DNA of 20,528 nt from a virus. Taxonomy: Duplodnaviria > Heunggongvirae > Uroviricota > Caudoviricetes. The stretch lies in the IMG/VR virus record IMGVR_UViG_2778261537_000015, positions 1 through 20,528 of that record. The stretch is one strand, 5' to 3'. The position numbers and the translations under genes were made by a program. Position 1 is the first letter of the stretch. Each line of letters begins with the position of its first letter. Below, one piece after another: positions 1,249-19,595 of this stretch. The notes beneath the pieces were generated by a model that was given only the letters and a program-made list of their open reading frames with translations, was not told where the DNA came from and did no database searches.

Positions 1249-1256
1249 ACGTAAAC

Positions 1257-1300
1257 TTTTCCGGTTGTTGTCGATATCTCCCTATCCCTCAACCGGAAAA
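1257..1300 (+). terminator. Inverted repeat just downstream of cscB (possible terminator hairpin)
   Basis: TTTTCCGGTTG (1257-1267) pairs with CAACCGGAAAA (1290-1300), an 11-bp stem starting 9 nt after the cscB stop. The loop is long (22 nt) and no clean T-run follows. Confidence 0.3.
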
Positions 1301-1688
1301 TAATAATACTAAAGTGCTTAGCCCTGCTAATAATCACCTAATCCAAACGCCTCATTCATGTTCTGGTACAGTCGCTCAAATGTACTTCAGATGCGCGGTT
1401 CGCTGATTTCCAGGACATTGTCGTCATTCAGCGACCTGTCCCGTGTATCACGGTCCTGCGAATTCATCAAGGAATGCATTGCGGAGTGAAGTATCGAGTC
1501 ACGCCATATTTCGCTATCAGGATTCTGTGTGATGGTTACATCGCCCGGCCCAGGGCTGTTTAGTCATCAGCGCTTTCTGACAGTGCTGAGATTTCAACCT
1601 GTTGCAGTAAAAATGAGTAGATATAAGGCAAGTGTGCTGCCAAACCTATCTTTTACGGGGTGAAGGTAGATTTCGTTTGAAGGGTATC

Positions 1689-1703
1689 TGGTGTCCCCTG
1701 CAG
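1689..1703. repeat. att core copy distal to the tRNA (TGGTGTCCCCTGCAG)
   Basis: 15/15 identity with 19446-19460, the 3' end of argW. The flanks diverge immediately on the left and after the core on the right (ACATC versus GAATC). Confidence 0.85.
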
Positions 1704-1761
1704 ACATCTACTTGAGGCGGCAGGGGATTGATTGGAATGGTATTTTTTGGATGTGAAAAAT

Positions 1762-1782
1762 ATTTTACCCGCTATTTTACCC
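1762..1782. promoter_or_regulatory. Two direct ATTTTACCC repeats (candidate integrase arm-type or RDF sites) in the torI-proximal arm
   Basis: ATTTTACCC occurs at 1762-1770 and 1774-1782. The same 9-mer family is clustered four times at 19285-19329 in the other arm. Confidence 0.5.
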
Positions 1783-1977
1783 ATTGGCGCGGCTTAAGAG
1801 CTTATTTTTGAATTCACAATGGTCACGATATAACCATCTTGCTCGCCCGTGGATAACTTTGGCTTTAGGCAGGTCTCCGGACTTAATCCGGTCATAGATG
1901 AAGGTTTTACCGAAGCCAGTATCGGCCATGATGAATTTCAAATCAACCAGTGAATCAGGTTGTAGTTCGTGTTGCAT
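1777..1977 (-). CDS. torI: Excisionase / recombination directionality factor TorI (AlpA/Xis-type winged helix), 66 aa
   Basis: Protein MQHELQPDSLVDLKFIMADTGFGKTFIYDRIKSGDLPKAKVIHGRARWLYRDHCEFKNKLLSRANG matches my memory of K-12 TorI. It lies at the opposite end of the element from the integrase, as in KplE1. Confidence 0.85.
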   Translation of the reverse strand: MQHELQPDSLVDLKFIMADTGFGKTFIYDRIKSGDLPKAKVIHGRARWLYRDHCEFKNKLLSRANG

Positions 1978-1996
1978 GAGTGCTATCTCCGAATAG

Positions 1997-2012
1997 GGAA
2001 TCGAACCTGCAA
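1997..2012. repeat. Second tRNA-derived fragment (GGAATCGAACCTGCAA)
   Basis: 16/16 identity with argW positions 19460-19475, the T-arm segment that continues directly from the att core. It lies in the torI upstream region. Confidence 0.5.
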
Positions 2013-2034
2013 ATCAGGCAATAAAAAACCGCCA

Positions 2035-2202
2035 TCAGGCGTTTTTGTGTTCTTTCAGTTCTTCAATTCGAATATTGGTTACGTCTGCATGTGCTATCTG
2101 CGCCCATATCATCCAGTGGTTATAGCAGTCGTTGATGTCCTCTGCTTCGATAACTCTGTTGAATGGTTCTCCATTCCATTCACCTGTGACTCGGAAGTGC
2201 AT
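2035..2202 (-). CDS. Hypothetical small phage protein, 55 aa (below the ORF-track cutoff)
   Basis: Manual translation gives MHFRVTGEWNGEPFNRVIEAEDINDCYNHWMIWAQIAHADVTNIRIEELKEHKNA. ATG at 2202-2200 with GGAG 9 nt upstream. The stop TGA (2037-2035) sits in the loop of a short hairpin followed by a T-run. No family recognised. Confidence 0.5.
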   Translation of the reverse strand: MHFRVTGEWNGEPFNRVIEAEDINDCYNHWMIWAQIAHADVTNIRIEELKEHKNA

Positions 2203-2212
2203 TTATCATCTC

Positions 2213-2240
2213 CATAAAACAAAACTCGCCGTAGCGAGTT
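2213..2240 (-). terminator. Rho-independent terminator candidate (minus strand)
   Basis: AACTCGC (2223-2229) pairs with GCGAGTT (2234-2240), a 7-bp stem with a 4-nt loop. On the minus strand it is followed by TTTTGTTTT (complement of 2213-2222). Confidence 0.5.
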
Positions 2241-2242
2241 CA

Positions 2243-2273
2243 GATAAAAGAAATCCCCGCGAGTGCGAGGATT
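2243..2273 (-). terminator. Rho-independent terminator candidate after the ASCH gene (minus strand)
   Basis: An imperfect hairpin AATCCCCGCGAGTGCGAGGATT spans 2252-2273, starting 2 nt after the ASCH stop. On the minus strand it is followed by TCTTTTAT. Confidence 0.45.
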
Positions 2274-2274
2274 G

Positions 2275-2559
2275 TTATTCATTGCCGATATTTACCTTTA
2301 TCGCGAACACCTTTACCGGTTTATCGCCGAAGTGCAGATGTGTGATTGTCTTGATTTCATATCCGTCATACGGAACATCAATTCTGCGGCTGGAGTCGTC
2401 GCGCTTCGGATATCCCTTTGTGATAATCAGGCGGTCATACTCCCGGAACATAATTCGCTTATTCCAATAGTCATTACACAGGCGATACTCTTCCGTTTTC
2501 TCCCCGCGAATCATGGCATCGAAGTATTCACCTTTGACAGCAAGTTGCAGGTTAGCCAC
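2275..2559 (-). CDS. ASCH-domain-like small phage protein, 94 aa
   Basis: The N-terminal pattern LAVKGEYFDAMIRGEKTEEYRL is typical of ASCH/PUA-like beta-barrel proteins. It overlaps the upstream gene by 8 nt, suggesting operon coupling. Confidence 0.6.
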   Translation of the reverse strand: MANLQLAVKGEYFDAMIRGEKTEEYRLCNDYWNKRIMFREYDRLIITKGYPKRDDSSRRIDVPYDGYEIKTITHLHFGDKPVKVFAIKVNIGNE

Positions 2560-2836
2560 GACCTTCCTCCTTTGGCTTGTGAATTTGTATCGTCATGCCG
2601 CTTTGAGTGGTGACTACAACGACAGAACCAGGCTGAAGACTGTTAAGATTGAATGCTTCGTAAAACGAATCCAATGCCAGTGCTTTTTTATTCTTTCGGT
2701 TCAACCAACGCCATCCCCTGCTACAGGCTACACTGACAATCCACTGTCCACTCCTGTAAGCCATATAAAACCAGATGAGCAAAACCTGAAGGAAGGCCAT
2801 CCAGTCAATAATTGTATATTTTGCGAGGGAGTCCAT
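2552..2836 (-). CDS. Hypothetical small membrane protein, 94 aa
   Basis: One clear hydrophobic helix (IIDWMAFLQVLLIWFYMAY). The start overlaps the stop of the upstream gene by 1 nt (shared position 2836). No family recognised. Confidence 0.55.
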   Translation of the reverse strand: MDSLAKYTIIDWMAFLQVLLIWFYMAYRSGQWIVSVACSRGWRWLNRKNKKALALDSFYEAFNLNSLQPGSVVVVTTQSGMTIQIHKPKEEGRG

Positions 2837-3555
2837 TACTTCACCTCCTGCGGCGGTTCTGGTAGCGGCATCCAGTGAGTTGCCTGCTCAATACCATTAC
2901 CCGGCTTAATCGTTGCTTCTCCTCGCCGGAATGTGCTTCCTGTATAGCGTGCGGAGCATATTAGCGGTTCAACCAGAGAGCTATCGAAATTCACCGAAAT
3001 AAGCACGTTCTGGTTCTTTTCAGGCATCCGCTCACTACAGCTTATCCAACCATCCGGAGTTGCCGGAGAGTTGCACGATGGCTCGTTCAACTTGCAAGTT
3101 TGGCTTACAGGTTCGGCTTCCAGTTCTGCTATGCGCTTTTCTGAGGCTTCAAGTAACGCCTGCTTATCGCGTAGCGCTTCTTCCAGTTCAGCAACATGGC
3201 ATTCACTATCAATAAGGTTGTTCTCTGCTGCTTCCAGCTCAACACGCAGCTTCCCTACCGTTAGTGCAATATCCTCGTTCTCCTGGTCGCGGCGTTTGAT
3301 GTATTGCTGGTTTCTTTCCCGTTCATCCAGCAGCGCCTGCACTACTTCAGGGTTGAAAGCTGCGATATAACGAGCGTTGTTCTCTGCATTTTTCTGTCCA
3401 TCAAAGCCGGTCCATTTGATAACGTCTTCACATCGTTTATCACCGGGCGTATGCACCGCATACGTACCAGTACCCGGCGAAATAAATGCGACCCATTCGC
3501 TTTGTGTTGCCTGTTTTGCTATCTCACGCAGTGCCTGATAGTCAATCTTGCTCAC
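2836..3555 (-). CDS. Ead/Ea22-like protein fused to a DUF551-like C-terminal domain, 239 aa
   Basis: The N-terminus MSKIDYQALREIAKQATQSEW plus a central coiled coil (LRVELEAAENN...AELEEAL...RIAELEAE) resembles lambdoid Ead/Ea22 proteins. The C-terminal motif THWMPLPEPP is typical of DUF551. GTG start with AAAGGAGG upstream. Confidence 0.65.
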   Translation of the reverse strand: MSKIDYQALREIAKQATQSEWVAFISPGTGTYAVHTPGDKRCEDVIKWTGFDGQKNAENNARYIAAFNPEVVQALLDERERNQQYIKRRDQENEDIALTVGKLRVELEAAENNLIDSECHVAELEEALRDKQALLEASEKRIAELEAEPVSQTCKLNEPSCNSPATPDGWISCSERMPEKNQNVLISVNFDSSLVEPLICSARYTGSTFRRGEATIKPGNGIEQATHWMPLPEPPQEVK

Positions 3556-3734
3556 TGGTTGCCTCCTTTGCGAAGCTCTGCGGCGAACTCGTTAAGTGAT
3601 ATGTAGCAATATCCAAATGTTAACGAACCGCTCGACTGCATAACGGGGAGCAATGGCTTGTTGTTGAGCCAATAGAGTTGTGGCCTGACTGGTGCCGGCT
3701 GATTGCTGTATTGCAGGTAAGCCCATGAATGATT
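3552..3734 (-). pseudogene. 5'-truncated remnant of a leftward early gene
   Basis: A minus-strand frame is open from 3734 to a TGA at 3554-3552 that overlaps the GTG start of the next gene. The C-terminus reads ...ISLNEFAAELRKGGNQ. The only ATG would give 28 aa with no SD, and the upstream half does not look coding. Confidence 0.45.
3624..3728 (+). pseudogene. 5'-truncated remnant of a rightward late (head-tail joining region) gene
   Basis: A plus-strand frame is open only from 3624 (after TAA 3621-3623). It ends ...GEQWLVVEPIELWPDWCRLIAVLQVSP with a TGA at 3726-3728 overlapping the ATG (3725) of the first tail gene (ATGA coupling). It has no start codon of its own. Confidence 0.45.
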
Positions 3735-4240
3735 TCACTGTCGATAATATTATCGATGTACTTGCTGGCTACATAGAACCTATCGCTGGTAAATGCCTGC
3801 AGGCTCAGGCTAACCGTGTACCAATGCCCAAAGATCAGTTCTGTATCCTGACCCCTTTGCGATTCACCAGACTATCCACGACGAGAGAGCTTAAGCAAGA
3901 TACCGGCTCTCCGGACACAAGCACCATGGGATATACGGAAGTTCGCCAGGCTGATATTCAGGTAGATATCTATGGTCAGGGGGCAGGGGATAGAGCTATT
4001 GCACTGGAAACAACATTCACCAGTGGATATGGCTACGACATCATCAAGGCTATTGATGCACGGCTTGCGCCGCTTTACTCATCTCCTGCCATTCAGGCGC
4101 CGATGATCAACGCCGAGAGTCAGTGGCAGGAGCGTTACACGTTAACTCTTTCCCTGCAAGCACACATCACCGTGTCGTTCCAGCAGGACTATTTCGACAA
4201 AGCAGAAATTTCAACTGAACAGGTGGATAACCGCCCATGA
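3725..4240 (+). CDS. Tail terminator / tail completion (neck-proximal) protein-like, 171 aa
   Basis: This is the first gene of the tail block and lies directly upstream of the sheath gene, overlapping it by 4 nt. ATG 3725 is preferred over the GTG at 3692 because of the ATGA coupling with the upstream remnant. The family call rests on position and size only. Confidence 0.55.
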   Translation: MNDFTVDNIIDVLAGYIEPIAGKCLQAQANRVPMPKDQFCILTPLRFTRLSTTRELKQDTGSPDTSTMGYTEVRQADIQVDIYGQGAGDRAIALETTFTSGYGYDIIKAIDARLAPLYSSPAIQAPMINAESQWQERYTLTLSLQAHITVSFQQDYFDKAEISTEQVDNRP

Positions 4241-5727
4241 GCACAATCCCTTTATCTGTAGATTTTAATATCACGCCCAATGTCGTTACGCCTGCCGGTT
4301 CTGCGGTTGATGCTAACGGCCTGATGTTGACCGATAACGAGCTTATCCCGGTTGGCGCGGTACAATCTTATTACTCCTCATCTGATGTATCAGCTTTGAT
4401 GGGGAGTGAATCGAAAGAATTCCTCGCAGCACAACAGTATTTTAACGGATACGAAAATTCATCAGTTATTCCTGGTGAACTACTGATGTATCGTATTGTT
4501 ACTTCACCAGTGGCTGGGCATCTTCTGTCCGGCAACCTGAAAGGTGTTACCCTAGCAACACTGAAAGCTATTCCAGCAGGAACAATCACCCTTTCCATTG
4601 ACGGTGAGTCGACTACCAGCACATCAATTGATTTGTCCACAGCCACAAGTTTTAGTGATATTGCGTCCAAGTTGCAGGTTGGAATTGGTGAAAGCAAGGT
4701 GGTGGTTGAATGGTTGCCAATCGCTAACCGATTCATCATTCGCTCTGCCACTACTGGCGCAGAGAGTGAAGTGTCTTATGCCTCTGCTGGCGCTCTGGCT
4801 GCCGGGTTATTACTGACGCAGGATTCCGCAGCGATTGTATCACCGGGTTCTGATGCGGTAACGCTGACAGATACGATGAATAACATCATCAACGGCAACC
4901 AGAACTGGATCCTGTTTAACTCGCTGGTCGAACTGACCGATGACCAGAAAACAGAATTGTGCGCATGGGCAAGCAGCAGTAAAAACCGGTTTGGATATGT
5001 TGTTCACGACACCACTTCAGCAGGAACGGTAGCCAATAATGCCAATTGCTTTGTGCAGAAAGTGGTTGTGGCAAATGGCTACGAGAACATTTTTCCGGTG
5101 TACGGAACATACCTGTATAGCGTTACAGCACTGGCATATGCTGCATCCGTGGATTTTGCACGCACCAATGGGCGTATCTCGTTCAAGTTCCGTGGATTTT
5201 CAGGGTTAGCACCCAACGTAAGCGATCTGGCGACCGCTAAGGCACTGAAGTCAAACGGTTACAACTTCTACGGCTCATACAGCCTGAACAAAACAATGGC
5301 GCAGTACGCATCTGATGGTGCCATTACTGGCAAGTTTGTATGGCTGGACAGTTTTATTAATCAGGTATGGATTAATGCCAATCTGGTTAGTGCTTTTGCC
5401 AACCTGTTCACCAATAACCAGTCTTACCCGTTCAATGAGACAGGATACGGCGCAGTTTCTGCTGCTGTTATTGATGTTTCTGAACAGGCTCTCAATTTCG
5501 GGGCTATTCAGCGTGGCGTGAAACTTGATAATGCGCAAACCAGAATTGTGAATAACACAGTTGGAAAAGATATCTCATCGACGCTGTATTCACAGGGCTG
5601 GTTCCTGTACATCCCGACACAGTCAGGCTCTGCACGCATTGAGCGAGATCTGAAAGGTGTCATTTTTTATTATGTCGATGGGCAACTTATTCAGTCCATC
5701 ACGATGTCCTCAACCGCGATTTTATAA
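4237..5727 (+). CDS. Contractile tail sheath protein (DUF3383-type), 496 aa
   Basis: The N-terminus MSTIPLSVDFNITPNVVTPAGSA...LTDNELIPVGAVQSY...AAQQYFNGYENSSVIPGELL fits the DUF3383 sheath-like family as I recall it. Size and position (before the tube gene) agree. Confidence 0.75.
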   Translation: MSTIPLSVDFNITPNVVTPAGSAVDANGLMLTDNELIPVGAVQSYYSSSDVSALMGSESKEFLAAQQYFNGYENSSVIPGELLMYRIVTSPVAGHLLSGNLKGVTLATLKAIPAGTITLSIDGESTTSTSIDLSTATSFSDIASKLQVGIGESKVVVEWLPIANRFIIRSATTGAESEVSYASAGALAAGLLLTQDSAAIVSPGSDAVTLTDTMNNIINGNQNWILFNSLVELTDDQKTELCAWASSSKNRFGYVVHDTTSAGTVANNANCFVQKVVVANGYENIFPVYGTYLYSVTALAYAASVDFARTNGRISFKFRGFSGLAPNVSDLATAKALKSNGYNFYGSYSLNKTMAQYASDGAITGKFVWLDSFINQVWINANLVSAFANLFTNNQSYPFNETGYGAVSAAVIDVSEQALNFGAIQRGVKLDNAQTRIVNNTVGKDISSTLYSQGWFLYIPTQSGSARIERDLKGVIFYYVDGQLIQSITMSSTAIL

Positions 5728-5738
5728 GGGAATAAATC

Positions 5739-6173
5739 ATGCCTATCGATATTACCTCGGCAAACAGTAAGCTGCGAATCGTCGTACCCGCTTACTACCC
5801 TGGCGGTTTTGATGTTGACGACTACGCAGCTGATAACATGTTTGAAACTGGTGCGTTACAGAACAAAGAAGACATGATGTCAGCGGACGGTAAATACCAT
5901 GCTGGTTTTATCTTTAACCCGACAGAGTTCACCATCAACCTGATGCCCACATCCAATGCTGGCTCGCTGATTGATGACTGGTATGCAGCGGAGAGAACCG
6001 CAATTTCAGCGTTTCAGTGTAATGCGGTGCTTACAGTTCCGGCTCTCGGCGCGAAATGGAATTTTGTGAACGGGGTTCTTTATACATGGACTCCAACCCC
6101 TCCGGGTCGGCGCGTACTGCAACCACGCCCGGCAGTATTTCACTTTGAGTCTGTAACACGGAGCACTATCTGA
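5739..6173 (+). CDS. Tail tube protein (DUF3277-type), 144 aa
   Basis: It lies immediately after the sheath gene, has the expected size, and has AAGGGA 7 nt upstream of the ATG. The call is mainly by synteny. Confidence 0.65.
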   Translation: MPIDITSANSKLRIVVPAYYPGGFDVDDYAADNMFETGALQNKEDMMSADGKYHAGFIFNPTEFTINLMPTSNAGSLIDDWYAAERTAISAFQCNAVLTVPALGAKWNFVNGVLYTWTPTPPGRRVLQPRPAVFHFESVTRSTI

Positions 6174-6580
6174 TGGCACGTAAAGAAATCCCCTTTATCG
6201 TGGAAGACGATAATCGCGACAATGGGAAAGAGTTCATTATCACAGAGATGTCGGCATGGGATGCCGACGAACTGGCACAGGATTTATTCCGCTCCATGGG
6301 GGAATCGGGATTCTCTGGTATTCCTGCTGATGTGATTGCCATGGGGTGTGCTGGCCTTGCCACCCTTGGTCTGAATGTTCTTTCTGCCGCATCGCCGGAA
6401 GTCGCCAGAAAACTTCGTGATCGCCTGATGTCAACTGTGCAAATTGTGATTACACACGAAGGCAGCAGACAGGTGCGAACCGTGAAGCCTGTCGACTTTG
6501 AAGAGCTATCAACCATTCGTCAGGTAATGGATAAGGTATTTAAAGTCAATTTTGATTTTTTAACGATCGCCGGAGAGTGA
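6173..6580 (+). CDS. Tail assembly chaperone, short form, 135 aa
   Basis: An acidic small protein between the tube and tape measure genes. Its start overlaps the tube stop (TGATG). A -1-frame ORF follows, as in G/GT chaperone pairs. Confidence 0.7.
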   Translation: MARKEIPFIVEDDNRDNGKEFIITEMSAWDADELAQDLFRSMGESGFSGIPADVIAMGCAGLATLGLNVLSAASPEVARKLRDRLMSTVQIVITHEGSRQVRTVKPVDFEELSTIRQVMDKVFKVNFDFLTIAGE

Positions 6581-6795
6581 AGTACCCGTTCATGGAGGAG
6601 GAGACTCTTCCGGCAAAACTCGTTAGCCCCGTAAACGTCACACCATCAATGAACGCCATTATCTGTTCAGGAAAAGCCACTTATACCGATTTGCAGGAAA
6701 GGTTATCTGTTCGTGATATGTATAACCTTCTGGAAATTATCTCGGTGGAATCATTTAACAAGCGGGTCTGGAATAAACATCAGGAGCAGCGATGA
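6173..6795 (+). CDS. Tail assembly chaperone, predicted -1 frameshifted long form (G-T-like)
   Basis: The slippery heptamer T_TTT_TTA lies in the zero frame at 6556-6562. The -1 frame is open from there to the TGA at 6793-6795, which overlaps the tape measure ATG. Confidence 0.5.
6556..6562 (+). other. Candidate programmed -1 ribosomal frameshift site (T TTT TTA)
   Basis: Codons 128-130 of the chaperone are GAT TTT TTA, which gives X_XXY_YYZ in frame 19 nt before the zero-frame stop. Confidence 0.5.
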
Positions 6796-12952: not shown

Positions 12953-13826
12953 AAATCACAGTCTTCGGTTTGACTTCACGAATGAATCATCAGCATTTGA
13001 TAAAAATGGAAACAATAAAATCTCCATCAGAAATGTTAAGTCAACAGTATCCCTGAATTTTGTTACCGGTCGGGGAGGTGCTCAGGCTGATATATCTCTT
13101 TACGGGTTAGGAATTGAAAGACTTGCTGATATATCAGGGAAGGCTGATGGTATTGTTGGGGAAGGTCAGAAGTTAAATGTTGAGGTATTTGCTGATGATT
13201 CTCTTGTTTTCTCCGGCACGATGCTTTCATCAATAGCAAACATGAATTCTGCTCCTGAAAGCAGTCTGATGATAACAGCCTCTTCTAATGTTGATTTACA
13301 GAACATGCCAGCAAGCCCGTTTACAGCACAGGGTGCGCAAAGTGTTGAAGATGTCATCTCATCCATTTGTGCAAGTGCAGGTTATGAAGCTGCGTTTAAT
13401 AATGTAAAAGGGATGACAACATCAGGAAGTCCGCATTTTGAAGGAAGTGTTTTTGAGCAACTTTATAGGGTTTGTTCAGATTATGGACTGGCGATGTCAG
13501 CTACGCCACCTGCAAAAGTAGAGTTCTGGCCTTCAGAAAAAAACAGAGACGATGTAATTCCGTTTATATCCAGAGAATACGGACTTGTTGGATATCCTGT
13601 ATTTTCAAATGGGGGACTGATGTTTCAGACGCAATATTCATCTCTCCTTTGCATTGGAAGATATGTGGATATCAAAACAGAACTACCACATGCAAGCGGA
13701 AGGTATAAGTTAACCTCCGTTCGGCATGAATTATCATCATGGATGCCAAATGGTTCATGGCACTCAATATGTATTGCCGCCAGAACAGCGGAACAAAGAG
13801 CAGAGGCGCAACAGAATAATGGATAA
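12945..13826 (+). CDS. Baseplate hub protein (gpD / Mu gp44 / XkdQ-like), about 293 aa; start uncertain
   Basis: Called by position before the spike gene and by size. TTG 12945 has GAGGAA 6 nt upstream and overlaps the preceding stop by 8 nt. The alternative ATG 12870 would overlap the previous ORF by 83 nt. The ORF-track start 12837 is unlikely. Confidence 0.55.
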   Translation: MYKNHSLRFDFTNESSAFDKNGNNKISIRNVKSTVSLNFVTGRGGAQADISLYGLGIERLADISGKADGIVGEGQKLNVEVFADDSLVFSGTMLSSIANMNSAPESSLMITASSNVDLQNMPASPFTAQGAQSVEDVISSICASAGYEAAFNNVKGMTTSGSPHFEGSVFEQLYRVCSDYGLAMSATPPAKVEFWPSEKNRDDVIPFISREYGLVGYPVFSNGGLMFQTQYSSLLCIGRYVDIKTELPHASGRYKLTSVRHELSSWMPNGSWHSICIAARTAEQRAEAQQNNG

Positions 13827-14511
13827 GCAACTATTTACTCCAACGCCTGCTCAGGTAAGTGAGGCTCAATCTCAGGAATATATTTTTGAGATGCTGATGT
13901 CTGGATATTTCTTCATTGAGTTAGCGAAAGTTCAGGAAGTCAGAGGGGAAGCACCAGATTTAGTTGTTGATGTTCTTCCTTTACTAACCAGAACAGACCG
14001 TACAGGAAAAATGATTTCCAACTCGGTTTTATATGATCTTCCCGTATGGAGGTTGCAGAGAGGAAACAGTGCTGTAATTATGGACCCTGTGGCAGGTGAT
14101 ATTGGTCTGATTGCGATATGCGACAAAGACATATCACTGGTAAGAAAAAATCGTAAAGAATCAGTACCTGGAAGCAAAAGACGACACAGTAAATCGGATG
14201 CGATTTATCTTGGTGGGGTATTAAACATTTCACCTACTCAATTCATTGAATTCGCTGACGGTGCAATAAACATAACCACGCCTAACCCACTAAATATTAA
14301 ATGTTCATCGTTAAATATTGATGCTCCTGATGGAGTCAACATGAATACTCCTTTACTTAAAGTTAGCGGTGATATTCAGGATAACGCAAGTTCACAGTCA
14401 TCTACTGTTAAAAATTTAAGGGACAACTATAACAATCACAAACATTCTGTTTCAGGTGTACAAAGTGGTGGGGCAACAATAAATTCCAATGCAACGGATA
14501 AACCGACATGA
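13819..14511 (+). CDS. Baseplate central spike (gpV / gp138-type membrane-puncturing spike), 230 aa
   Basis: ATG 13819 overlaps the hub stop by 8 nt. The N-terminal region looks OB-fold-like, and the C-terminal part is a repetitive beta-helix-like segment (INITTPNPLNIKCSSLNIDAPDGVNMNTPLLKVSG). It ends with an HxH apex motif, NNHKHS (His codons at 14437-14439 and 14443-14445). Confidence 0.7.
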   Translation: MDKQLFTPTPAQVSEAQSQEYIFEMLMSGYFFIELAKVQEVRGEAPDLVVDVLPLLTRTDRTGKMISNSVLYDLPVWRLQRGNSAVIMDPVAGDIGLIAICDKDISLVRKNRKESVPGSKRRHSKSDAIYLGGVLNISPTQFIEFADGAINITTPNPLNIKCSSLNIDAPDGVNMNTPLLKVSGDIQDNASSQSSTVKNLRDNYNNHKHSVSGVQSGGATINSNATDKPT

Positions 14512-14867
14512 CATACAGAACTATGCAACTGGACACTTCTACGTGGGACTTGACGCTTGACGGAAATGGCAATCTGGCGATCGCAGAAGAATCATATTCT
14601 GTTGCTCAGGATGTCGCCAGTGCGTGCCTGGTGTTTTCTGGAGAGTGTTATTACGACAATACGCTTGGGATTCCATGGAAGGCAGAAGTTCTTGGCAGGC
14701 GACCATCTCCTGGTTTTATTGCTCAGAAAATGCAGGCTGAAGCACTAAAATTACCCGTCGTTGAGGATGCTCTGGCATCAGTTTTCTTTGACAAGAATAC
14801 ACGTACAACTCGCGGCACAATCCGCGTTACTGATATCAATGGTAATATTGCACAGGCTACCTTATGA
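14508..14867 (+). CDS. Baseplate wedge initiator (gpW/gp25 or XkdS-like), 119 aa
   Basis: The pattern TWDLTLDGNGNLAIAEESYSVAQDVASACLVFSGECYYDNTLGIPW is typical of the small protein preceding gpJ-like genes. It is ATGA-coupled on both sides. Confidence 0.6.
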   Translation: MTYRTMQLDTSTWDLTLDGNGNLAIAEESYSVAQDVASACLVFSGECYYDNTLGIPWKAEVLGRRPSPGFIAQKMQAEALKLPVVEDALASVFFDKNTRTTRGTIRVTDINGNIAQATL

Positions 14868-16093
14868 CGATATTAAATACGGCTGTTCCTGATGTAACCA
14901 TCACTGAAAACGGTCTTTCAGTTCCCGACATAGCGGATGTGCTGGCGGGAAGACTTACAGACATGTCAACGGTTCTTGGCGGTGGCGCAAGTCAGTCACT
15001 GAGTTCACCGCAAGGTCAGATCGCACAGTCTGACACTGAAATTATTGCTCAGGTATACGACAAGCTTCTTTGTTTGTTTAATCAAATAAACCCTGACTTC
15101 TCAACAGGTAGATTCCAGGACGGGATTGGCCGGATTTACTTTATGGAACGGAACGCTGCTCAGGGGACAGTTGTTACGGCAACATGCATTGGTCAGGTTG
15201 GAACAACAATACCAGCAGGGAGTACCGCTGTGGATACGAGCGGGTATATATATCAGTCAATTGACAATGCCGTAATACCCTCATCAGGCTCTGTTGATGT
15301 GCAGTTTGTCAACACAACAACCGGGCCAATTCCGTGTGCATCCGGTTCACTGAACCAGATTTATCGAGCCGTTTCCGGGTGGGATGCTGTAAATAATATT
15401 AGCCCTGGAGTCGTTGGTGTTGATGTTGAATCACGTATCGCCTTTGAAACTCGCCGGAGACAATCAGTTGCCAGAAACAGTCGAAATCAGGACGCATCTA
15501 CATTAGCAGCGTTACTTGCGACTGATGGTGTGCTTGATGCTTACGTATGGTCAAACAGAACTGCAGAAACAGTAAATAAAGGAACAACGAATTTCCCGAT
15601 TCTTGCGCATTCTGTTTATATTTGTGTTTATGGCGGGGCTGATACGGATGTTGCTGAGTCAATATTCAATACTTATAACCCCGGTGCCAATATGAATGGT
15701 GATACAACGTTCACTGTTTACGATAACGTTAATTACATGCCGCCATATCCATCTTACGTTATGCAATGGCAAAAGGCATCACCTACGCGGGTTTACTTTA
15801 AGGTAAATATCGATGCCTCACTAAATCCACCAAGTGATATAACTAAGCAAGTAAAGAAAATGGTTGCTACTGTATTCAATGGAGGGTATGAGGGTATTGG
15901 GAAGGCGCGAATTGGTTCTACGATAAATGCTGGTAAATACTATGCCCCTGTTATTTCAATATCTCCTGATACAGTTGGCATTTTGTCTCTTGAAATTTCT
16001 CTCGATGGTTCACTATACGGACCTGCTGTGACTATGGGCATAGACCAGGTTCCAACCATTCAGGAATCAGATATTACTGTTACATTGTCGTAG
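14864..16093 (+). CDS. Baseplate J / gp47-like wedge protein, 409 aa
   Basis: Size, position, and the N-terminal pattern (LPDIADVLAGRLTDM..., SSPQGQIAQSDTEIIAQVYDKL) fit Baseplate_J family members. Confidence 0.7.
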   Translation: MTILNTAVPDVTITENGLSVPDIADVLAGRLTDMSTVLGGGASQSLSSPQGQIAQSDTEIIAQVYDKLLCLFNQINPDFSTGRFQDGIGRIYFMERNAAQGTVVTATCIGQVGTTIPAGSTAVDTSGYIYQSIDNAVIPSSGSVDVQFVNTTTGPIPCASGSLNQIYRAVSGWDAVNNISPGVVGVDVESRIAFETRRRQSVARNSRNQDASTLAALLATDGVLDAYVWSNRTAETVNKGTTNFPILAHSVYICVYGGADTDVAESIFNTYNPGANMNGDTTFTVYDNVNYMPPYPSYVMQWQKASPTRVYFKVNIDASLNPPSDITKQVKKMVATVFNGGYEGIGKARIGSTINAGKYYAPVISISPDTVGILSLEISLDGSLYGPAVTMGIDQVPTIQESDITVTLS

Positions 16094-16103
16094 GGGGAGC
16101 GGT

Positions 16104-16742
16104 ATGTGGGAAGACACAATTCTTACCCAGTACTCTGCAAGCAAAAAATTACTATCCATCATTGATACCTTTAATCAGGCAATTAGCCTTGATGATTTCA
16201 CTGATGAGTTTATTAAAAAAATATGGGATTTGACCACCTGTGAGACATTCGGGTTGGACATGTGGGGTAAAATAGTTGGAATAAGCCGTTATATTAATAC
16301 TCCAATAGAAGCCAGTTCTTTCGGATTCAATGAAGCAGATGGCAAAGATCCAGATTACCCAACTCCTTTCAACGATTCACCTTTTTTTGGTGGTGTACAG
16401 GAGACAACGAATGTCAGGTTGAGTGATGATGCTTACAGAACTCTCATATTTTGCAAAGCATTCACAAATATAAGTATTGCCACGATCCCTGAAATAAACA
16501 GATTTCTAAAAATATTGTTTTATCAAAGAGGGAGAGCATATTGCGTAAATTATCGAGATATGACAATAGGAATAACGTTTGAATTTGAGCTTGCGACATA
16601 CGAAGAATCGATTCTCACGAATTATGAGGTGATGCCCGTCCCGAGTGGTGTTCTGGTAAATATACGTAAAATCATTTCCCCTTATTTTGGTTTTTCATCT
16701 GATGCCTATCCGTTTAATGATGGCACATTTTATAGGAATTAA
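16104..16742 (+). CDS. Baseplate wedge / fibre-attachment protein (DUF2612, gpI-like), 212 aa
   Basis: It lies between the J-like and tail fibre genes, with GGGGGAG upstream. The N-terminus ILTQYSASKKLLSIIDTFNQAISLDDF...IWDLTTCETFGLDMWGKIVGISR fits DUF2612 as I recall it. Confidence 0.6.
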   Translation: MWEDTILTQYSASKKLLSIIDTFNQAISLDDFTDEFIKKIWDLTTCETFGLDMWGKIVGISRYINTPIEASSFGFNEADGKDPDYPTPFNDSPFFGGVQETTNVRLSDDAYRTLIFCKAFTNISIATIPEINRFLKILFYQRGRAYCVNYRDMTIGITFEFELATYEESILTNYEVMPVPSGVLVNIRKIISPYFGFSSDAYPFNDGTFYRN

Positions 16743-16744
16743 GC

Positions 16745-17608
16745 ATGAATCGTTCTGACTCACCTAAAAAACAACCTAAGCCATTTGGAGTTAATGGACA
16801 GAGAGGGGTAATATTGCCAACCACCCCTGCAGGTGATAACTCAGCATCGTATGAACAGGGGTTTCCTCCAATAACAATGATCCTGAAATCTGCTGGCGGT
16901 TTGCCGCCAAAAGGCCAGGATATGAACCAAATTTTATACGAACTTTCGGCTCTTGGTAGATGGTCGAGCACAGGGGCGCTGAATACTTTTGATTCTGAAT
17001 TTGCTTCGGAGATTTCTGGATATCCGTCAGGGGCGATGCTCATCTCGGACGATGGGGAAAGAATATTCATTAACACAACAGAAGGAAATCTATCTGATCC
17101 AAACAGCAATGGTGCCGGGTGGAAAGATGTTCTTTCATACCTTGGTTTGGGAGAAACGATAAATAAAGCCTCCGGAGCTATGCAGAAATCGGCTAATGGA
17201 GCTGATATTTCTGATGTATCAGCCTTCCGAAATGCGCTCCAGTTAGGGACCGCTGCAACACGAGATGTTGGTGCCGGGTTAATTAATGGCATTCCGGACA
17301 TGTCCTCATTCCGTGGTTCATTAGCCGGAACTGGTTACATTAAAATCCCCATTATCGGTGCCGGAGGCGGTGCGCAAACCATTGTCATTCAGTGGGGAGT
17401 GCATTCAACTCCCCCTGGCAGTAATGCTGCCTACAATCTGGCTGTAGCATTTCCTAACTCGATACTCTGGGCTACCGGGGGACGCGGTGCCCCTGGGTCA
17501 AATGCATCGATGAATGTCGGTCCAGAAGGGACTCAACAAATTAGAATTCAGAACTATGCACCCAGCGGCCCTAATGAAAACTGCTTCTGGATTGCGATTG
17601 GTTATTGA
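16745..17608 (+). CDS. Tail fibre protein, 287 aa
   Basis: The conserved fibre N-terminus ASYEQGFPPITMILKSAGGLPPKGQDMNQILYELS is present. The C-terminal receptor-binding-like domain ends IQWG...AFPNS...FWIAIGY (gp53-like C-terminal pattern). A Tfa chaperone gene follows. Confidence 0.8.
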   Translation: MNRSDSPKKQPKPFGVNGQRGVILPTTPAGDNSASYEQGFPPITMILKSAGGLPPKGQDMNQILYELSALGRWSSTGALNTFDSEFASEISGYPSGAMLISDDGERIFINTTEGNLSDPNSNGAGWKDVLSYLGLGETINKASGAMQKSANGADISDVSAFRNALQLGTAATRDVGAGLINGIPDMSSFRGSLAGTGYIKIPIIGAGGGAQTIVIQWGVHSTPPGSNAAYNLAVAFPNSILWATGGRGAPGSNASMNVGPEGTQQIRIQNYAPSGPNENCFWIAIGY

Positions 17609-17619
17609 GGGGGATAAAG

Positions 17620-18039
17620 ATGAAAAATGTTTATAAGTTTCATGATGGCTTATTTTACCCACCGGACCTGAATTATGAGTCTATTCCAGATAGTGCGATA
17701 GAAGTATCGAGCGAGGAGTATATAAAAGCCATGAGCCGCGCACCTGGAAGCACTTTTACGGTCAATGATGCTGGTGTTGTCACTATTATCCCGGCACCAG
17801 AGCCTACGCAGGAGCAACGTATCGCTCAGGCTGAGGTGCATAAACAATTCTTGCTGGATGAAGCTACGCAAAGGATTACTATCTGGCAAACCAAGCTTCT
17901 CATGGGGCGTAAGTTAACGGATGATGAATCAGCCAGCCTTAATGCCTGGATGGACTATATTGACGAAGTAGCGAAGACTAAAGCCGTCACTGCACCCGAT
18001 ATCGTCTGGCCTACGCCTCCGGGGGAGCAGGCCAATTGA
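17620..18039 (+). CDS. Tail fibre assembly chaperone (Tfa family), 139 aa
   Basis: ATG 17620 with GAGGGGGA upstream. The pattern EQRIAQAEVHKQFLLDEATQRITIWQTKLLMGRKLTDDESASLNAWMDYIDEV is the classic Tfa C-terminal half. Confidence 0.8.
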   Translation: MKNVYKFHDGLFYPPDLNYESIPDSAIEVSSEEYIKAMSRAPGSTFTVNDAGVVTIIPAPEPTQEQRIAQAEVHKQFLLDEATQRITIWQTKLLMGRKLTDDESASLNAWMDYIDEVAKTKAVTAPDIVWPTPPGEQAN

Positions 18040-18126
18040 TATCCGGCGCACAGGACAAAACTGATACACACAAAGCTTTGCACTGGATTGCAAGGCTTTG
18101 TGCTATTCGATAGTTGTTAAGGTGGA

Positions 18127-19284
18127 TCACTCCACCTTTTCATCAAGCCAATCCGCCCACCACTGCATCATTTCTCTGCGCTTATCTAGATACTGAGCAT
18201 GGTTGTAAATCCCACGCACAGATCCGCCGTTGGCATGTGCCAGTTGCACTTCAATGGCGTCGGCAGGCCATTCGTGCTCGTTCATAATCGTGCTGAATTC
18301 ATGCCTGAATCCGTGACCGCTTTCCAGCCCCTCATAGCCGATTTGTTTGATCACAAGTAGCACCGCGTTCTCGCAGATTGGTTTCTTCTTATCGTTGCGC
18401 CCGGCAAAAACAAATTCTGATACTGGTTTAGTGATGGAGCTTAGCGTAGTGAGAAGTTCAACCACCTGGTCTGACATCGGGACCACATGAATTTTGCGTC
18501 CCTTCATCACACTGGCGTCGATGGTGATAATCCTGTTTTCAAAATCGACGTTCTTCCATAGCATGGAGCGAAGCTCTTTCGTTCTTAGGGCTGTGTAGCG
18601 TAAAACTTTGGTCGCAATGAGCGATACGATACTTCCTGAAAATGTTGCCAGTGCTTTGTTGAATGCAGGGATCTGGTCTGCTGGAAGAAACGGGAAGTTC
18701 TTCTTGCGGTATCCTTTCATGGCGTCTGCAAGGTCAGGTGCCGGGTTATATTTAGCCCTGCCGGTGACAATAGCGTAACGGAAAACCTCGCCGCATCTTC
18801 TGCGGGCTTTGTTGGCTCGCTCCATTGCACCGCGGTCTTCAAATCTGCGGATTACTTCCTGCAGTTGCATCGGCTCAATATCCTGAATTTCAAGGCTGCC
18901 GATGATAGGTAAAATGTCTTCATCAAACATTTTTGCAAGTTCATTTGCATAGCCTACTGACCAGACTTGCTTCTTGTGCTCGTACCATTCCTTGTAAATC
19001 GCACTAAAGGAATTGTTGTTAGACGAAGCCTTTTTCGCCTTTACCGGATCGATGCCAACCGAGATGTCTTTCCTCGCAGTCCATGCTTTATCCCTTGCCT
19101 CCTGCAAAGTCATAAGCGGATATTTTCCGACGGTCAGGATTTTCTCCTTACCGCCAATCTTGTAGCGAAGCTGCCATACCTTTTTCCCTGACACAGGGAC
19201 ATAAAGGTACAGGCCATTACCATCGAGAAGGCGGTATGGTTTTTCTTTCGGCTTTGCTGCTTCAATCTGCTTAACGGTGAGCAT
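18127..19284 (-). CDS. intS: Tyrosine recombinase / prophage integrase IntS, 385 aa
   Basis: From MLTVKQIEAAKPKEKPYRLLDGNGLYLYVPVSGKKVWQLRYK to ...HGFRHEFSTIMNE...LAHANGGSVRGIYNHAQYL it matches my memory of K-12 IntS. The catalytic R..HxxR..Y pattern is present, and it is adjacent to argW. ATG 19284 is preferred over the upstream ATG 19320, which gives a 12-codon extension. Confidence 0.9.
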   Translation of the reverse strand: MLTVKQIEAAKPKEKPYRLLDGNGLYLYVPVSGKKVWQLRYKIGGKEKILTVGKYPLMTLQEARDKAWTARKDISVGIDPVKAKKASSNNNSFSAIYKEWYEHKKQVWSVGYANELAKMFDEDILPIIGSLEIQDIEPMQLQEVIRRFEDRGAMERANKARRRCGEVFRYAIVTGRAKYNPAPDLADAMKGYRKKNFPFLPADQIPAFNKALATFSGSIVSLIATKVLRYTALRTKELRSMLWKNVDFENRIITIDASVMKGRKIHVVPMSDQVVELLTTLSSITKPVSEFVFAGRNDKKKPICENAVLLVIKQIGYEGLESGHGFRHEFSTIMNEHEWPADAIEVQLAHANGGSVRGIYNHAQYLDKRREMMQWWADWLDEKVE

Positions 19285-19329
19285 GGGTAAAAATCCGATG
19301 GGTAAAATTATTTTACCCACTTTTTACCC
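19285..19329. promoter_or_regulatory. Cluster of four (A/T)TTTTACCC repeats at the intS 5' end (candidate arm-type or RDF sites and intS operator)
   Basis: GGGTAAAAA at 19285-19293, GGGTAAAAT at 19300-19308, ATTTTACCC at 19310-19318, and TTTTTACCC at 19321-19329. Positions 19300-19318 form a perfect 9+1+9 palindrome. The first copy abuts the intS ATG. Confidence 0.55.
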
Positions 19330-19445
19330 GTCATGGAGTGCGGCTGTCAACGATCTGACGCGAACCATTACGAACTGTGAATCTACGGAAGGCTTGATAT
19401 TCAGGGGATTTTGCGGACTGCTACGGATGGGAGCGAACTGATAAA

Positions 19446-19460
19446 TGGTGTCCCCTGCAG
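19446..19460. repeat. att core copy within argW (TGGTGTCCCCTGCAG)
   Basis: Identical to 1689-1703. It corresponds to the acceptor 3' strand plus CCA of the tRNA. Confidence 0.85.
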
Positions 19461-19520
19461 GAATCGAACCTGCAATTAGCCCTTAGGAGGGGCTCGTTAT
19501 ATCCATTTAACTAAGAGGAC
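19446..19520 (-). tRNA. argW: tRNA-Arg (anticodon CCU), 75 nt
   Basis: The reverse complement is GTCCTCTTAGTTAAATGGATATAACGAGCCCCTCCTAAGGGCTAATTGCAGGTTCGATTCCTGCAGGGGACACCA. It folds as a cloverleaf with acceptor GTCCTCT/AGGGGAC, anticodon loop CTCCTAA, T-arm TGCAGG-TTCGATT-CCTGCA, and an encoded CCA. Confidence 0.95.
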
Positions 19521-19595
19521 AATGCGGCATGAGTATACCCGCTAATGGACTGCGGGGTAAGTACGCTGCCGCTCGATTGCTTAAACCCTCGCCAT

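What the first reader, a model, noticed from the sequence alone, without database searches (positions are those of the whole stretch)
3725..18039. Complete, uninterrupted contractile-tail module with no head, packaging or lysis genes: remnant, tail reservoir, or tailocin-like unit?
Seen: there are 14 plus-strand ORFs. In order they are the terminator-like protein, sheath, tube, chaperone with a -1 frameshift extension, tape measure, five baseplate proteins including a hub and an HxH spike, a J-like protein, a DUF2612-like protein, the fibre, and Tfa. All appear intact, and every junction is an overlap or a gap of at most 11 nt. No capsid, portal, terminase, holin or endolysin gene exists anywhere in the element. 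Inference: the parsimonious reading is a recent deletion remnant (see the scar at about 3600-3650). However, the intactness of about 11 kb of structural genes in a cryptic element is notable. It is compatible with selection for a tail-only function, such as an R-type tailocin precursor. Other options are a donor of tails or fibres for recombination with incoming phages, or a supplier of tails to capsid-only satellites. Against an autonomous tailocin: no lysis cassette, no regulator and no promoter are evident, and a strong terminator splits the module.
Basis: inference. Interest (0 to 1): 0.55.

Follow-up and report, generated by a model that had tools for sequence, protein, structure and literature searches.

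The report
Tail-only leftover of a deleted prophage
This is an ordinary defective prophage at the E. coli argW tRNA gene: one roughly 25 kb deletion removed its control, replication, lysis and head genes. The tail genes are intact because the deletion looks recent, and nothing indicates the cell uses them.

Summary
The window is E. coli draft GCA_002511735.1. It holds a 17.8 kb defective prophage between cscB and argW, bounded by the KplE1/CPS-53 att core. IntS (98.7% aa identical to K-12) and TorI (100%) sit at opposite ends.

All 14 tail genes are present, full length and ungapped against relatives. They are E217/GF-2-type: neck terminator, DUF3383 sheath, tube, chaperone with a TTTTTTA -1 slip site, tape measure, five baseplate proteins, J, DUF2612, fibre and Tfa.

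The module is not uninterrupted. A 3.27 kb moron cassette lies between the tape measure and the baseplate genes. It carries a secreted protein, a P63C protein, a P22 immI-like Mnt/Arc/Ant set with promoter-like sites, and two strong terminators.

The scar is exact, at 3641/3642, with 2 nt of microhomology joining two truncated gene 3' ends. Intact relatives carry about 25 kb there, including Q, the lysis genes and the head genes.

No junction was found in 5,426 complete E. coli genomes, in species representatives or in JGI metagenomes. An intact-necked relative differs by 4 of 4,238 nt. Capsid and sheath genes co-occur 27:27 in complete genomes.

Verdict: a recent, private deletion remnant. 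There is no support for a tailocin or a selected tail reservoir.

The parts
1688..1703 (.). attR core, 15 of 16 nt of the KplE1 core ATGGTGTCCCCTGCAG. This is the left end of the element.
   Evidence: A direct repeat with 19446-19465. The sequence was read. The 16 nt core is quoted in PMC2951348.
1777..1977 (-). torI-type excisionase (recombination directionality factor), 66 aa.
   Evidence: 100% aa identical to K-12 TorI. Relatives annotate it as TorI.
2035..3555 (-). Four early-left 'ea' genes of P22/HK620 type: a 55 aa ORF, a 94 aa ORF, DUF4752, and Ea22/DUF551 (2836-3555).
   Evidence: Pfam marks on the called genes.
3552..3642 (-). 3' fragment (last ~29 codons) of a YfdS-family gene. It marks the left edge of the deletion.
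   Evidence: It aligns to the YfdS family gene of strain ECL27977 up to position 3642 and diverges after that.
3641..3642 (.). Deletion junction. The dinucleotide TA is shared by both parental sequences (2 nt microhomology).
   Evidence: Three-way alignment of the window, L025 (left parent type) and L009 (right parent type). All matches in complete genomes break at 3641/3642.
3641..3728 (+). 3' fragment (last ~28 codons) of the neck gene that precedes the terminator gene in intact relatives (123-125 aa; weak E217_gp28 mark in four of the ten relatives). It marks the right edge of the deletion.
3725..8567 (+). Tail block A: neck/tail terminator (3725-4240), sheath (4237-5727), tube (5739-6173), chaperone G (6173-6580) with its -1 frameshift extension to 6795 (slippery site 6556-6562), and tape measure with a C-terminal transglycosylase-like region (6792-8567).
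   Evidence: Pfam, PHROG and PDB matches. Frameshift site. Full-length, ungapped, 99.6-100% nt identity to the best relative for each gene.
8568..11837 (.). Moron cassette inside the tail operon. It holds a signal-peptide protein (8576-9034, -), a P63C protein (9243-10211, +), a bidirectional terminator (10216-10239), an Mnt-like Arc-fold repressor (10227-10547, -), divergent promoter-like sites (10581-10656), Arc (10655-10828, +), an antirepressor (10818-11759, +) and a terminator (11799-11818).
   Evidence: The cargo varies between relatives, but a terminator hairpin (one of two hairpin sequences) just upstream of the Dit-like gene start is present in all 21.
11838..18039 (+). Tail block B: Dit-like, plug, hub, spike, gp25/W-like, J, DUF2612 wedge, fibre and Tfa.
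   Evidence: Full-length and ungapped against relatives. The fibre is 100% nt identical in four other contigs.
18127..19284 (-). intS integrase, 385 aa.
   Evidence: 98.7% aa identical to K-12 IntS.
19444..19520 (-). attL core (19444-19459) overlapping the 3' end of argW tRNA-Arg(CCU) (19446-19520). This is the right end of the element.

Best explanation
The element is a defective prophage of the KplE1/CPS-53 kind at argW. Its parent was a ~44 kb temperate phage with a lambdoid early region (cI/cro, replication, nin, Q, lambda-type lysis) and an E217/GF-2-type myovirus head and tail. It integrated with IntS, with TorI at the far end.

One illegitimate-recombination deletion of about 24-25 kb joined the 3' end of a YfdS-like early-left gene to the 3' end of a neck gene, across a TA microhomology. 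That removed immunity, replication, Q, the late promoter region, lysis, packaging, head and most neck genes.

What is left is what lay next to the two att ends: the recombination module, a few ea genes, and the distal 14 kb of the late operon.

The tail genes are intact because too little time has passed for them to decay. They are most probably not transcribed as an operon. Their only known promoter region and its antiterminator are gone, no promoter-like site lies upstream of block A, and block B sits behind a strong terminator.

Shown: the architecture, the junction, gene integrity, rarity, and near-identity to intact relatives. Inferred: transcriptional silence, recency in absolute time, and absence of function.
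For: - Same locus, att core and recombination proteins as K-12 KplE1.
- Intact relatives, including strain TW10590 at the very same csc-argW locus, have the full set between the two edges: early-left, cI/cro, replication, nin, Q, holin/endolysin/Rz, terminase, portal, capsid and neck genes.
- The junction lies inside two genes, both reduced to 3' stubs, with 2 nt of microhomology and parental orientation kept.
- No junction-spanning match in 5,426 complete E. coli genomes, in 185,579 species-representative genomes or in JGI metagenome contigs.
- The junction is seen only in the source assembly and in SRR3987536, which is 100% identical over 12,180 nt.
- L009 keeps the neck genes and differs by 4 of 4,238 nt.
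- There are only 29 window-private substitutions in 11,109 coding nt, 20 synonymous and 9 non-synonymous. There are no indels or stops.
- In complete genomes, capsid occurs at 27 places in 20 genomes, sheath at 27 places in 20 genomes, and baseplate at 28 places in 21 genomes.
- All 10 displayed contexts of the identical tape-measure protein have heads.
- All 7 other-species loci with an upstream flank have heads.
- Other independent remnants at the same site keep different amounts of the late end: L010 has baseplate and fibre only, L025 is a P22-type remnant, and K-12 CPS-53 has fibre fragments.
- The terminator before block B is native to the whole family, as expected for an operon read by Q-modified polymerase.
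Against: - All 14 tail genes, IntS, TorI and the immI-like set are intact. Several 'complete' relatives, by contrast, show IS insertions, frameshifts or truncated fibres. Some retention by selection therefore cannot be formally excluded.
- Transcription was not measured.
- The consensus promoter scan is insensitive: it found 16 sites against 31.8 expected from shuffles.
- No + strand terminator was detected between cscB and the tail genes, so read-through is possible in principle.
- The rest of the genome could not be examined for a helper phage or for a translocated head module.
Confidence: 0.9

Rival explanations
1. Proto-tailocin. The tail-only element is kept because the cell makes headless contractile particles that kill competitors, with lysis and activation supplied in trans by another resident prophage.
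For: A complete assembly set for a contractile tail is present and intact: terminator, sheath, tube, chaperone, tape measure, baseplate, fibre and Tfa. Myovirus tails assemble independently of heads (established knowledge for T4, P2 and Mu). Tail genes are statistically enriched in incomplete prophages (PMC7744054).
Against: - There is no holin, endolysin or spanin, and no SOS-linked regulator.
- Relatives place Q and the holin far upstream, in the deleted interval. A foreign Q acts only at its own promoter-proximal site, so it could not drive these genes (established lambda biology).
- Strong terminators lie at 10216-10239 and 11799-11818.
- The element is not conserved in any other genome examined.
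- No tail-only copy of this tail type was found in 5,426 E. coli genomes or in 7 other species.
- Characterised R-tailocin loci carry their own regulators and lysis cassette (PMC4684702).
Confidence: 0.04
2. Selected recombination reservoir. The remnant is maintained because it donates fibre or baseplate alleles to incoming related phages.
For: The fibre gene is 100% nt identical, and DUF2612 and Tfa are 99.8% identical, in contigs whose upstream tail genes are only 98-99% identical and whose context differs. The family is visibly mosaic: J, DUF2612 and the fibre swing between 77% and 100% identity among relatives.
Against: Mosaicism shows that exchange happens in the family. It does not show that this remnant is kept for that purpose. 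Exchange benefits the phage, not the host. The remnant is private to one lineage. As a passive by-product this is likely. As a selected function there is no support.
Confidence: 0.04
3. Assembly artefact. The junction is a mis-join of two contigs in a draft genome, and the prophage is really complete.
For: The source is a draft assembly with a 49 kb contig.
Against: The junction is reproduced base for base in the separate Logan assembly of SRR3987536. It is a clean 2 nt microhomology join with no repeat that could mislead an assembler. It is not known whether the two data sets are independent isolates or the same reads.
Confidence: 0.02

Closest known systems
Cryptic prophage CPS-53 / KplE1 of E. 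coli K-12 (argW)
   Same: Same chromosomal site and the same 16 nt att core. IntS is 98.7% and TorI 100% aa identical, placed at opposite ends of the element. Both have lost immunity, replication, lysis and head genes. Both keep the att-proximal parts, meaning the early-left genes next to torI and the late-end genes next to intS.
   Different: KplE1 is 10.2 kb. Next to intS it keeps gtrABS and only fragments of fibre genes (tfaS', yfdK, yfdL'), plus replication-gene remnants. The element here is 17.8 kb and keeps a whole myovirus tail operon with an immI-like cassette. Tfa versus YfdK is only 35% identical.
Intact lambdoid prophages with E217-type structural genes in E. coli (e.g. strains TW10590, WS4437A-1, SC407)
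   Same: The tail genes are 97-100% nt identical, in the same order and of the same lengths. Relatives also carry a moron slot after the tape measure and a terminator hairpin before the Dit-like gene. TW10590 also shares the same csc-argW locus.
   Different: They carry the ~25 kb that is missing here. Fibre, Tfa and moron cargo differ between them.
Edwardsiella phages GF-2 and Edno5 (isolated temperate myoviruses), and more distantly Pseudomonas phage E217/PB1-type tails
   Same: Closest isolated phages by sheath, at 73-75% aa identity. Sheath, spike and J match E217 and related solved structures: 8env, 8eon, 9b42, 9b45 and 4ru3. Pfam families E217_Gp32, Pam3_gp18 and DUF3383 also match.
   Different: No isolated phage in the 50,697-record collection matches the tail module at the nucleotide level beyond a 70% stretch in a Vibrio phage. 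E217 is a virulent Pseudomonas phage with 25-35% identity at best.
R-type tailocins (R-pyocin, carotovoricin, enterocoliticin and others)
   Same: A contractile tail gene set without head or packaging genes.
   Different: Those loci have their own regulator(s) and lysis cassette and are conserved at a fixed locus across strains (PMC4684702; PMC12090994). None of these holds here.
P22 immI region (mnt / arc / ant)
   Same: The gene order is an Arc-fold repressor on one strand, then divergent promoter-like sites, then arc and ant on the other strand, all embedded in the late structural region. The comparison with P22 gene order is from established knowledge.
   Different: The Mnt-like protein is 106 aa with a long C-terminal tail. 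The Ant matches only P22_AR_N. No sar-type RNA family hit was found. Operator function was not tested.

Membership tests
R-type tailocin | Complete contractile-tail gene set with no head or packaging genes | tested here: met
   14 intact tail genes are present. No capsid, portal or terminase gene is in the window.
R-type tailocin | Own lysis cassette (holin, endolysin, usually spanins) for release | tested here: not met
   None is in the element. In relatives the lysis genes lie in the deleted interval. The tape-measure transglycosylase-like region is a virion enzyme, not a lysis gene.
R-type tailocin | Dedicated regulator or promoter coupling tail expression to stress | tested here: not met
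   No promoter-like site lies upstream of 3725. The antiterminator Q gene and everything upstream of the neck gene, where a lambda-type late promoter would lie, are deleted. The only regulators are Mnt/Arc/Ant inside a terminator-bounded moron.
R-type tailocin | Conserved as a chromosomal locus across strains of the species | tested here: not met
   The junction is absent from 5,426 complete E. coli genomes, from species representatives and from JGI metagenomes. Sheath and capsid counts are equal.
R-type tailocin | Produces headless particles with killing activity | not testable with these tools
   Needs induction, EM and killing assays.
KplE1/CPS-53-type defective prophage at argW | Bounded by the duplicated 16 nt core overlapping the 3' end of argW | tested here: met
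   The copy at 19444-19459 is perfect and the copy at 1688-1703 matches 15 of 16.
KplE1/CPS-53-type defective prophage at argW | IntS next to attL, transcribed inward, with the TorI excisionase at the opposite end next to attR | tested here: met
   (98.7% and 100% aa identity). The arrangement is described in PMC2951348.
KplE1/CPS-53-type defective prophage at argW | Lacks immunity, replication, lysis and packaging functions | tested here: met
   compared with the intact relative.
KplE1/CPS-53-type defective prophage at argW | Still excisable by IntS plus TorI | not testable with these tools
   Both genes and both cores are intact. Excision itself needs an in vivo assay (shown for KplE1, PMC2951348).
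E217/GF-2-type myovirus tail | DUF3383 sheath, E217_Gp32 tube, Pam3-type plug, gpV-like spike, J and DUF2612 wedge proteins in conserved order | tested here: met
   Pfam hits, PDB sequence hits to E217 and related phages, and 73-75% sheath identity to GF-2 and Edno5.
Lambda G/GT-type chaperone frameshift | Slippery heptamer in the 0 frame near the end of the chaperone ORF, with an open -1 frame that ends just before or overlapping the tape-measure gene | tested here: met
   T TTT TTA lies at 6556-6562. The -1 frame is open from 6556 to 6795, and the tape measure starts at 6792. Actual frameshifting was not tested.
P22 immI-type antirepressor module | Mnt-like and Arc repressors flanking divergent promoters, followed by ant | tested here: inconclusive
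   Domains and gene order fit. Promoter-like sites lie at 10581-10656 on + and 10634-10605 on -. Operators, an antisense RNA and antirepressor activity were not tested, and there was no Rfam hit.

The most novel reading that the evidence does not exclude
The remnant is an early stage of tail domestication. Low-level or read-through transcription (from cscB, or from the immI promoters past the terminator), together with lysis by a co-resident prophage, releases functional headless E217-type tails. These act as a narrow-spectrum bacteriocin or are picked up by capsid-only satellites. If so, E. coli would have a natural 'day-one' tailocin intermediate.
Probability: 0.03. Interest if true: 0.6.

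Novelty: new member of a known kind. Interest (0 to 1): 0.12.

Why it matters
The finding matters little by itself. It adds one more defective prophage at a well-known E. coli integration hot spot, and its anatomy is fully explained by one deletion.

It is a clean worked example of a general caution: 11 kb of open reading frames in a cryptic element is not evidence of selection when an intact relative is 99.9% identical.

If the unlikely proto-tailocin reading were true, it would give a rare natural snapshot of the first step of tail domestication.

Tried and rejected
- Sister strains for a dN/dS or decay test. Exact-protein look-ups of the Ea22-like, sheath, fibre and tape-measure proteins, and junction searches in three collections, found the junction only in the source assembly and in SRR3987536, which is 100% identical. 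A post-deletion dN/dS is therefore impossible. I used window-private substitutions as an upper bound instead.
- Nucleotide search of 50,697 phage records. It found no close isolated phage for the tail module. Only the protein-level search was informative.
- PADLOC scan of the moron and ea proteins for defence functions. There were no hits except the excisionase matching a 'mad1' model, which I regard as a generic excisionase-fold match.
- Rfam scan. It found only the tRNA.
- An inversion or translocation instead of a deletion. I rejected this because both flanks keep the orientation they have in intact relatives. A head module elsewhere in the genome could not be checked.
- The terminator at 11799-11818 as a sign of decay or insulation specific to the remnant. 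I rejected this because all 21 relatives have a terminator hairpin at that position.

Full report
**What the window is.** The window is identical to part of contig NMHQ01000035.1 of E. coli draft assembly GCA_002511735.1: there are no mismatches over the 13,555 nt that the fetched locus overlaps. Host genes frame an inserted element.
- On the left are cscB (1-1248) and, beyond the window, cscKAR and dsdXA.
- On the right are argW tRNA-Arg(CCU) (19446-19520, minus strand) and yfdC.
- The element is bounded by the 16 nt KplE1 core ATGGTGTCCCCTGCAG. The copy at 19444-19459 is perfect and the copy at 1688-1703 matches 15 of 16 (core quoted in PMC2951348).
- IntS (18127-19284, minus) is 98.7% aa identical to K-12 IntS. 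The 66 aa excisionase at 1777-1977 is 100% identical to K-12 TorI.
- The two genes sit at opposite ends of the element, which is the unusual arrangement described for KplE1, HK620 and Sf6.

The element therefore occupies the same site and uses the same recombination module as the K-12 cryptic prophage CPS-53/KplE1.

**Checking the observation.** The 14 tail genes are real and well supported.
- Pfam hits: neck terminator PF23961, sheath DUF3383 (E 5e-106), tube E217_Gp32, tail assembly chaperone, Dit-like protein, Pam3 plug, gpV-like spike with a weak Apex hit and a C-terminal HKH, Baseplate_J, DUF2612, gp53-like fibre C-terminus and Caudo_TAP.
- PHROG hits: chaperone, tape measure/lytic tail protein, baseplate hub and wedge.
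- Hits to solved structures of Pseudomonas phage E217 and relatives: sheath gp31, spike gp43 and J-like gp44.
- The -1 frameshift claim fits. T TTT TTA at 6556-6562 is in the chaperone's reading frame, exactly where the -1 frame opens, and that frame ends at 6795, overlapping the tape-measure start.

The module is not 'uninterrupted'. Between the tape-measure stop (8567) and the next tail gene (11838) lie 3,270 nt that carry:
- a minus-strand protein with a signal peptide (8576-9034);
- a P63C-domain protein (9243-10211);
- a bidirectional terminator (10216-10239, -19.1 kcal/mol);
- a minus-strand Arc-fold repressor (10227-10547);
- a small plus-strand Arc protein (10655-10828);
- a P22_AR_N antirepressor (10818-11759);
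- a second terminator (11799-11818, -17.7 kcal/mol).

The best sigma-70-like match in the scanned region (1250-19600), 10 of 12 at 10628-10656, and a divergent partner lie between the two Arc-fold genes. This is the gene order of the P22 immI region. So 'every junction <=11 nt' and 'no regulator and no promoter evident' are both wrong.

**What the parent looked like.** Related prophages occur in 20-21 of 5,426 complete E. coli genomes and in many draft assemblies; the identical tape-measure protein is indexed in 170 blocks of the collection.
- Order: torI and ea genes, early-left genes, cI/cro/cII, replication, nin genes, Q, lambda-type holin/endolysin/Rz, terminase, portal, Mu-F-like, scaffold, cement and capsid proteins, neck proteins. 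Then follows the same tail operon as in the window, ending at the integrase.
- Strain TW10590 carries such a prophage at exactly the same csc-argW locus.
- The moron slot after the tape measure varies in cargo: P63C, Mnt/Arc/Ant, an S24 repressor with a Bro-N antirepressor, or a SocA_Panacea pair. A terminator hairpin just upstream of the Dit-like gene start (one of two hairpin sequences) is present in all 21 relatives examined. The 'strong terminator that splits the module' is therefore a native feature of an operon that, in a lambdoid phage, is read by Q-modified polymerase. That last step rests on established lambda biology and the presence of Q genes.
- The closest isolated phages are Edwardsiella phages Edno5 and GF-2, at 73-75% sheath identity. 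No isolated phage matches the tail module closely at the nucleotide level.

**The scar.** Every match to complete genomes breaks at 3641/3642.
- Left of it, the window follows a YfdS-family early-left gene up to 3642. Right of it, from 3641, it follows the small neck gene that precedes the terminator gene. The shared TA is the only homology.
- Both genes are reduced to their last 28-29 codons, and they converge on each other.
- Both flanks keep their parental orientation, so this is a simple deletion.
- Measured on TW10590 it removes about 25 kb, or about 24 kb without that strain's IS3 copy. The remaining element is 17.8 kb.

**Is the intactness notable?** The evidence says no.
1. The junction is private. 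There are no spanning matches in 5,426 complete genomes, in one genome for each of 185,579 species or in JGI metagenome contigs. It appears only in the source assembly and in SRR3987536, which is 100% identical over 12,180 nt and may be the same isolate.
2. A contig from SRR15686322 keeps the neck genes upstream and differs from the window by 4 of 4,238 nt across 3641-7878.
3. Against about 18 relatives, the 11,109 coding nt of the tail carry 29 substitutions private to the window, 20 synonymous and 9 non-synonymous, with no indel or stop. That ratio is the signature of purifying selection in the phage ancestors or of unsampled alleles. It sets an upper bound of 0.26% on post-deletion change.
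4. With E. coli substitution rates of roughly 1e-7 to 1e-6 per site per year (my own knowledge, not computed here), 11 kb would take at least centuries, and perhaps many millennia, to acquire its first ORF-breaking mutation. Intact ORFs are the null expectation for a young remnant.
5. Tail-without-head is not a recurrent state for this module.
   - Capsid and sheath each occur at 27 places in 20 complete genomes, and baseplate genes at 28 places in 21.
   - All ten displayed contexts of the identical tape measure have heads.
   - In seven other species the sheath is always preceded by head genes.
6. Other remnants at the same site keep different amounts of the late end.
   - L010 keeps only the baseplate, the identical fibre and Tfa.
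   - ECL27977 has a P22-type remnant in which an early-left gene is fused to gp16.
   - K-12 CPS-53 keeps only fibre fragments.
   - This spread is what random internal deletions produce when the recombination module at both ends is spared. It agrees with the reported enrichment of tail-fibre and integrase genes in incomplete prophages (PMC7744054).

**Can it work as a tailocin?** Characterised R-tailocin loci carry their own regulators and a lysis cassette (PMC4684702). Neither is present here.
- The antiterminator Q gene and everything upstream of the neck gene, where a lambda-type late promoter would lie, are deleted. A Q protein from another prophage acts only at its own promoter-proximal site (established knowledge).
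- No promoter-like site precedes 3725, and the genes immediately upstream are on the opposite strand.
- Transcripts from the immI-like promoter would meet the terminator at 11799-11818 before the baseplate genes.
- I infer that the tail genes are largely silent. This is an inference, because the promoter scan is crude and read-through from cscB cannot be excluded.

**What may still be active.** The IntS/TorI/att module may still work. KplE1 with the same proteins is excisable, and TorI also inhibits the TorR response regulator (PMC2951348 and PMC3509656). The Mnt/Arc/Ant set is also intact, and its antirepressor could in principle act on repressors of other resident lambdoid prophages. That is an analogy with P22 Ant and was not tested.

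**Comparison and verdict.** The element is a new member of a known kind: a KplE1-like defective prophage at argW, derived from a lambdoid phage with an E217/GF-2-type virion. It meets one tailocin criterion (tail genes without head genes) and fails the three others that could be tested. The suggestion that intactness implies a tail-only function is not supported. Interest is low.

Noticed in passing
window 8568-11837; L001 20936-24966; L017 11785-16452; L006 10928-13129: The slot between the tape-measure and Dit-like genes is a moron hot spot in this prophage family. Cargo varies between relatives: a secreted protein, P63C, Mnt/Arc/Ant, an S24-HTH repressor with a Bro-N antirepressor, a SocA_Panacea pair, or DUF2513. 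A terminator hairpin is kept just before the baseplate genes in all 21 relatives.
   Followed up: partly
L010 1-12540 (SRR15731824 contig 54): A second, independent remnant at argW keeps only the baseplate, fibre and Tfa genes, with a fibre 100% nt identical to the window's. Next to its torI end lie another integrase and AAA_15/RloB genes, possibly a defence island integrated in tandem.
   Followed up: partly
L025 3522-4784 (E. coli ECL27977, same cscB-torI locus): A P22-type prophage remnant at the same locus shows the same style of internal deletion. A truncated anti-RecBCD gene abuts an N-terminally truncated gp16 ejection-protein gene, followed by Arc and a tailspike.
   Followed up: no
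window 1997-2012: An exact 16 nt copy of argW positions 19460-19475 (GGAATCGAACCTGCAA, the bases that follow the att core in the tRNA) lies inside the element, just upstream of torI. The K-12 KplE1 sequence aligns across this stretch (window 1689-2027, 96.5% identity). It may be a trace of a longer ancestral attP-tRNA homology, or part of the attR arm.
   Followed up: no
window 8576-9034 (-): A 152 aa protein with an N-terminal signal peptide and no family hit in Pfam, PHROGs or PADLOC. It is encoded antisense to the tail operon directly after the tape measure and is 99.6-99.8% nt identical in the closest of 12 relatives. It could be a lysogenic-conversion or exclusion moron.
   Followed up: partly
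L003 27306-28534 and 3889-4346; L005 14956-15199; L006 2859-3337 and 18985-19410: Several 'complete' relatives are themselves decaying: an IS3 in DUF2612, a frameshifted Rz-like lysis gene, truncated fibre genes and a frameshifted cement protein. So head-plus-tail prophages of this family are often defective too.
   Followed up: no
window 1-1248 and L002/L007 flanks: The element sits next to the csc sucrose-utilisation cluster (cscB, cscK, cscA, cscR), with only a 72 aa dsdX fragment. This is a different neighbourhood from K-12, where dsdC and dsdX follow attR.
   Followed up: no
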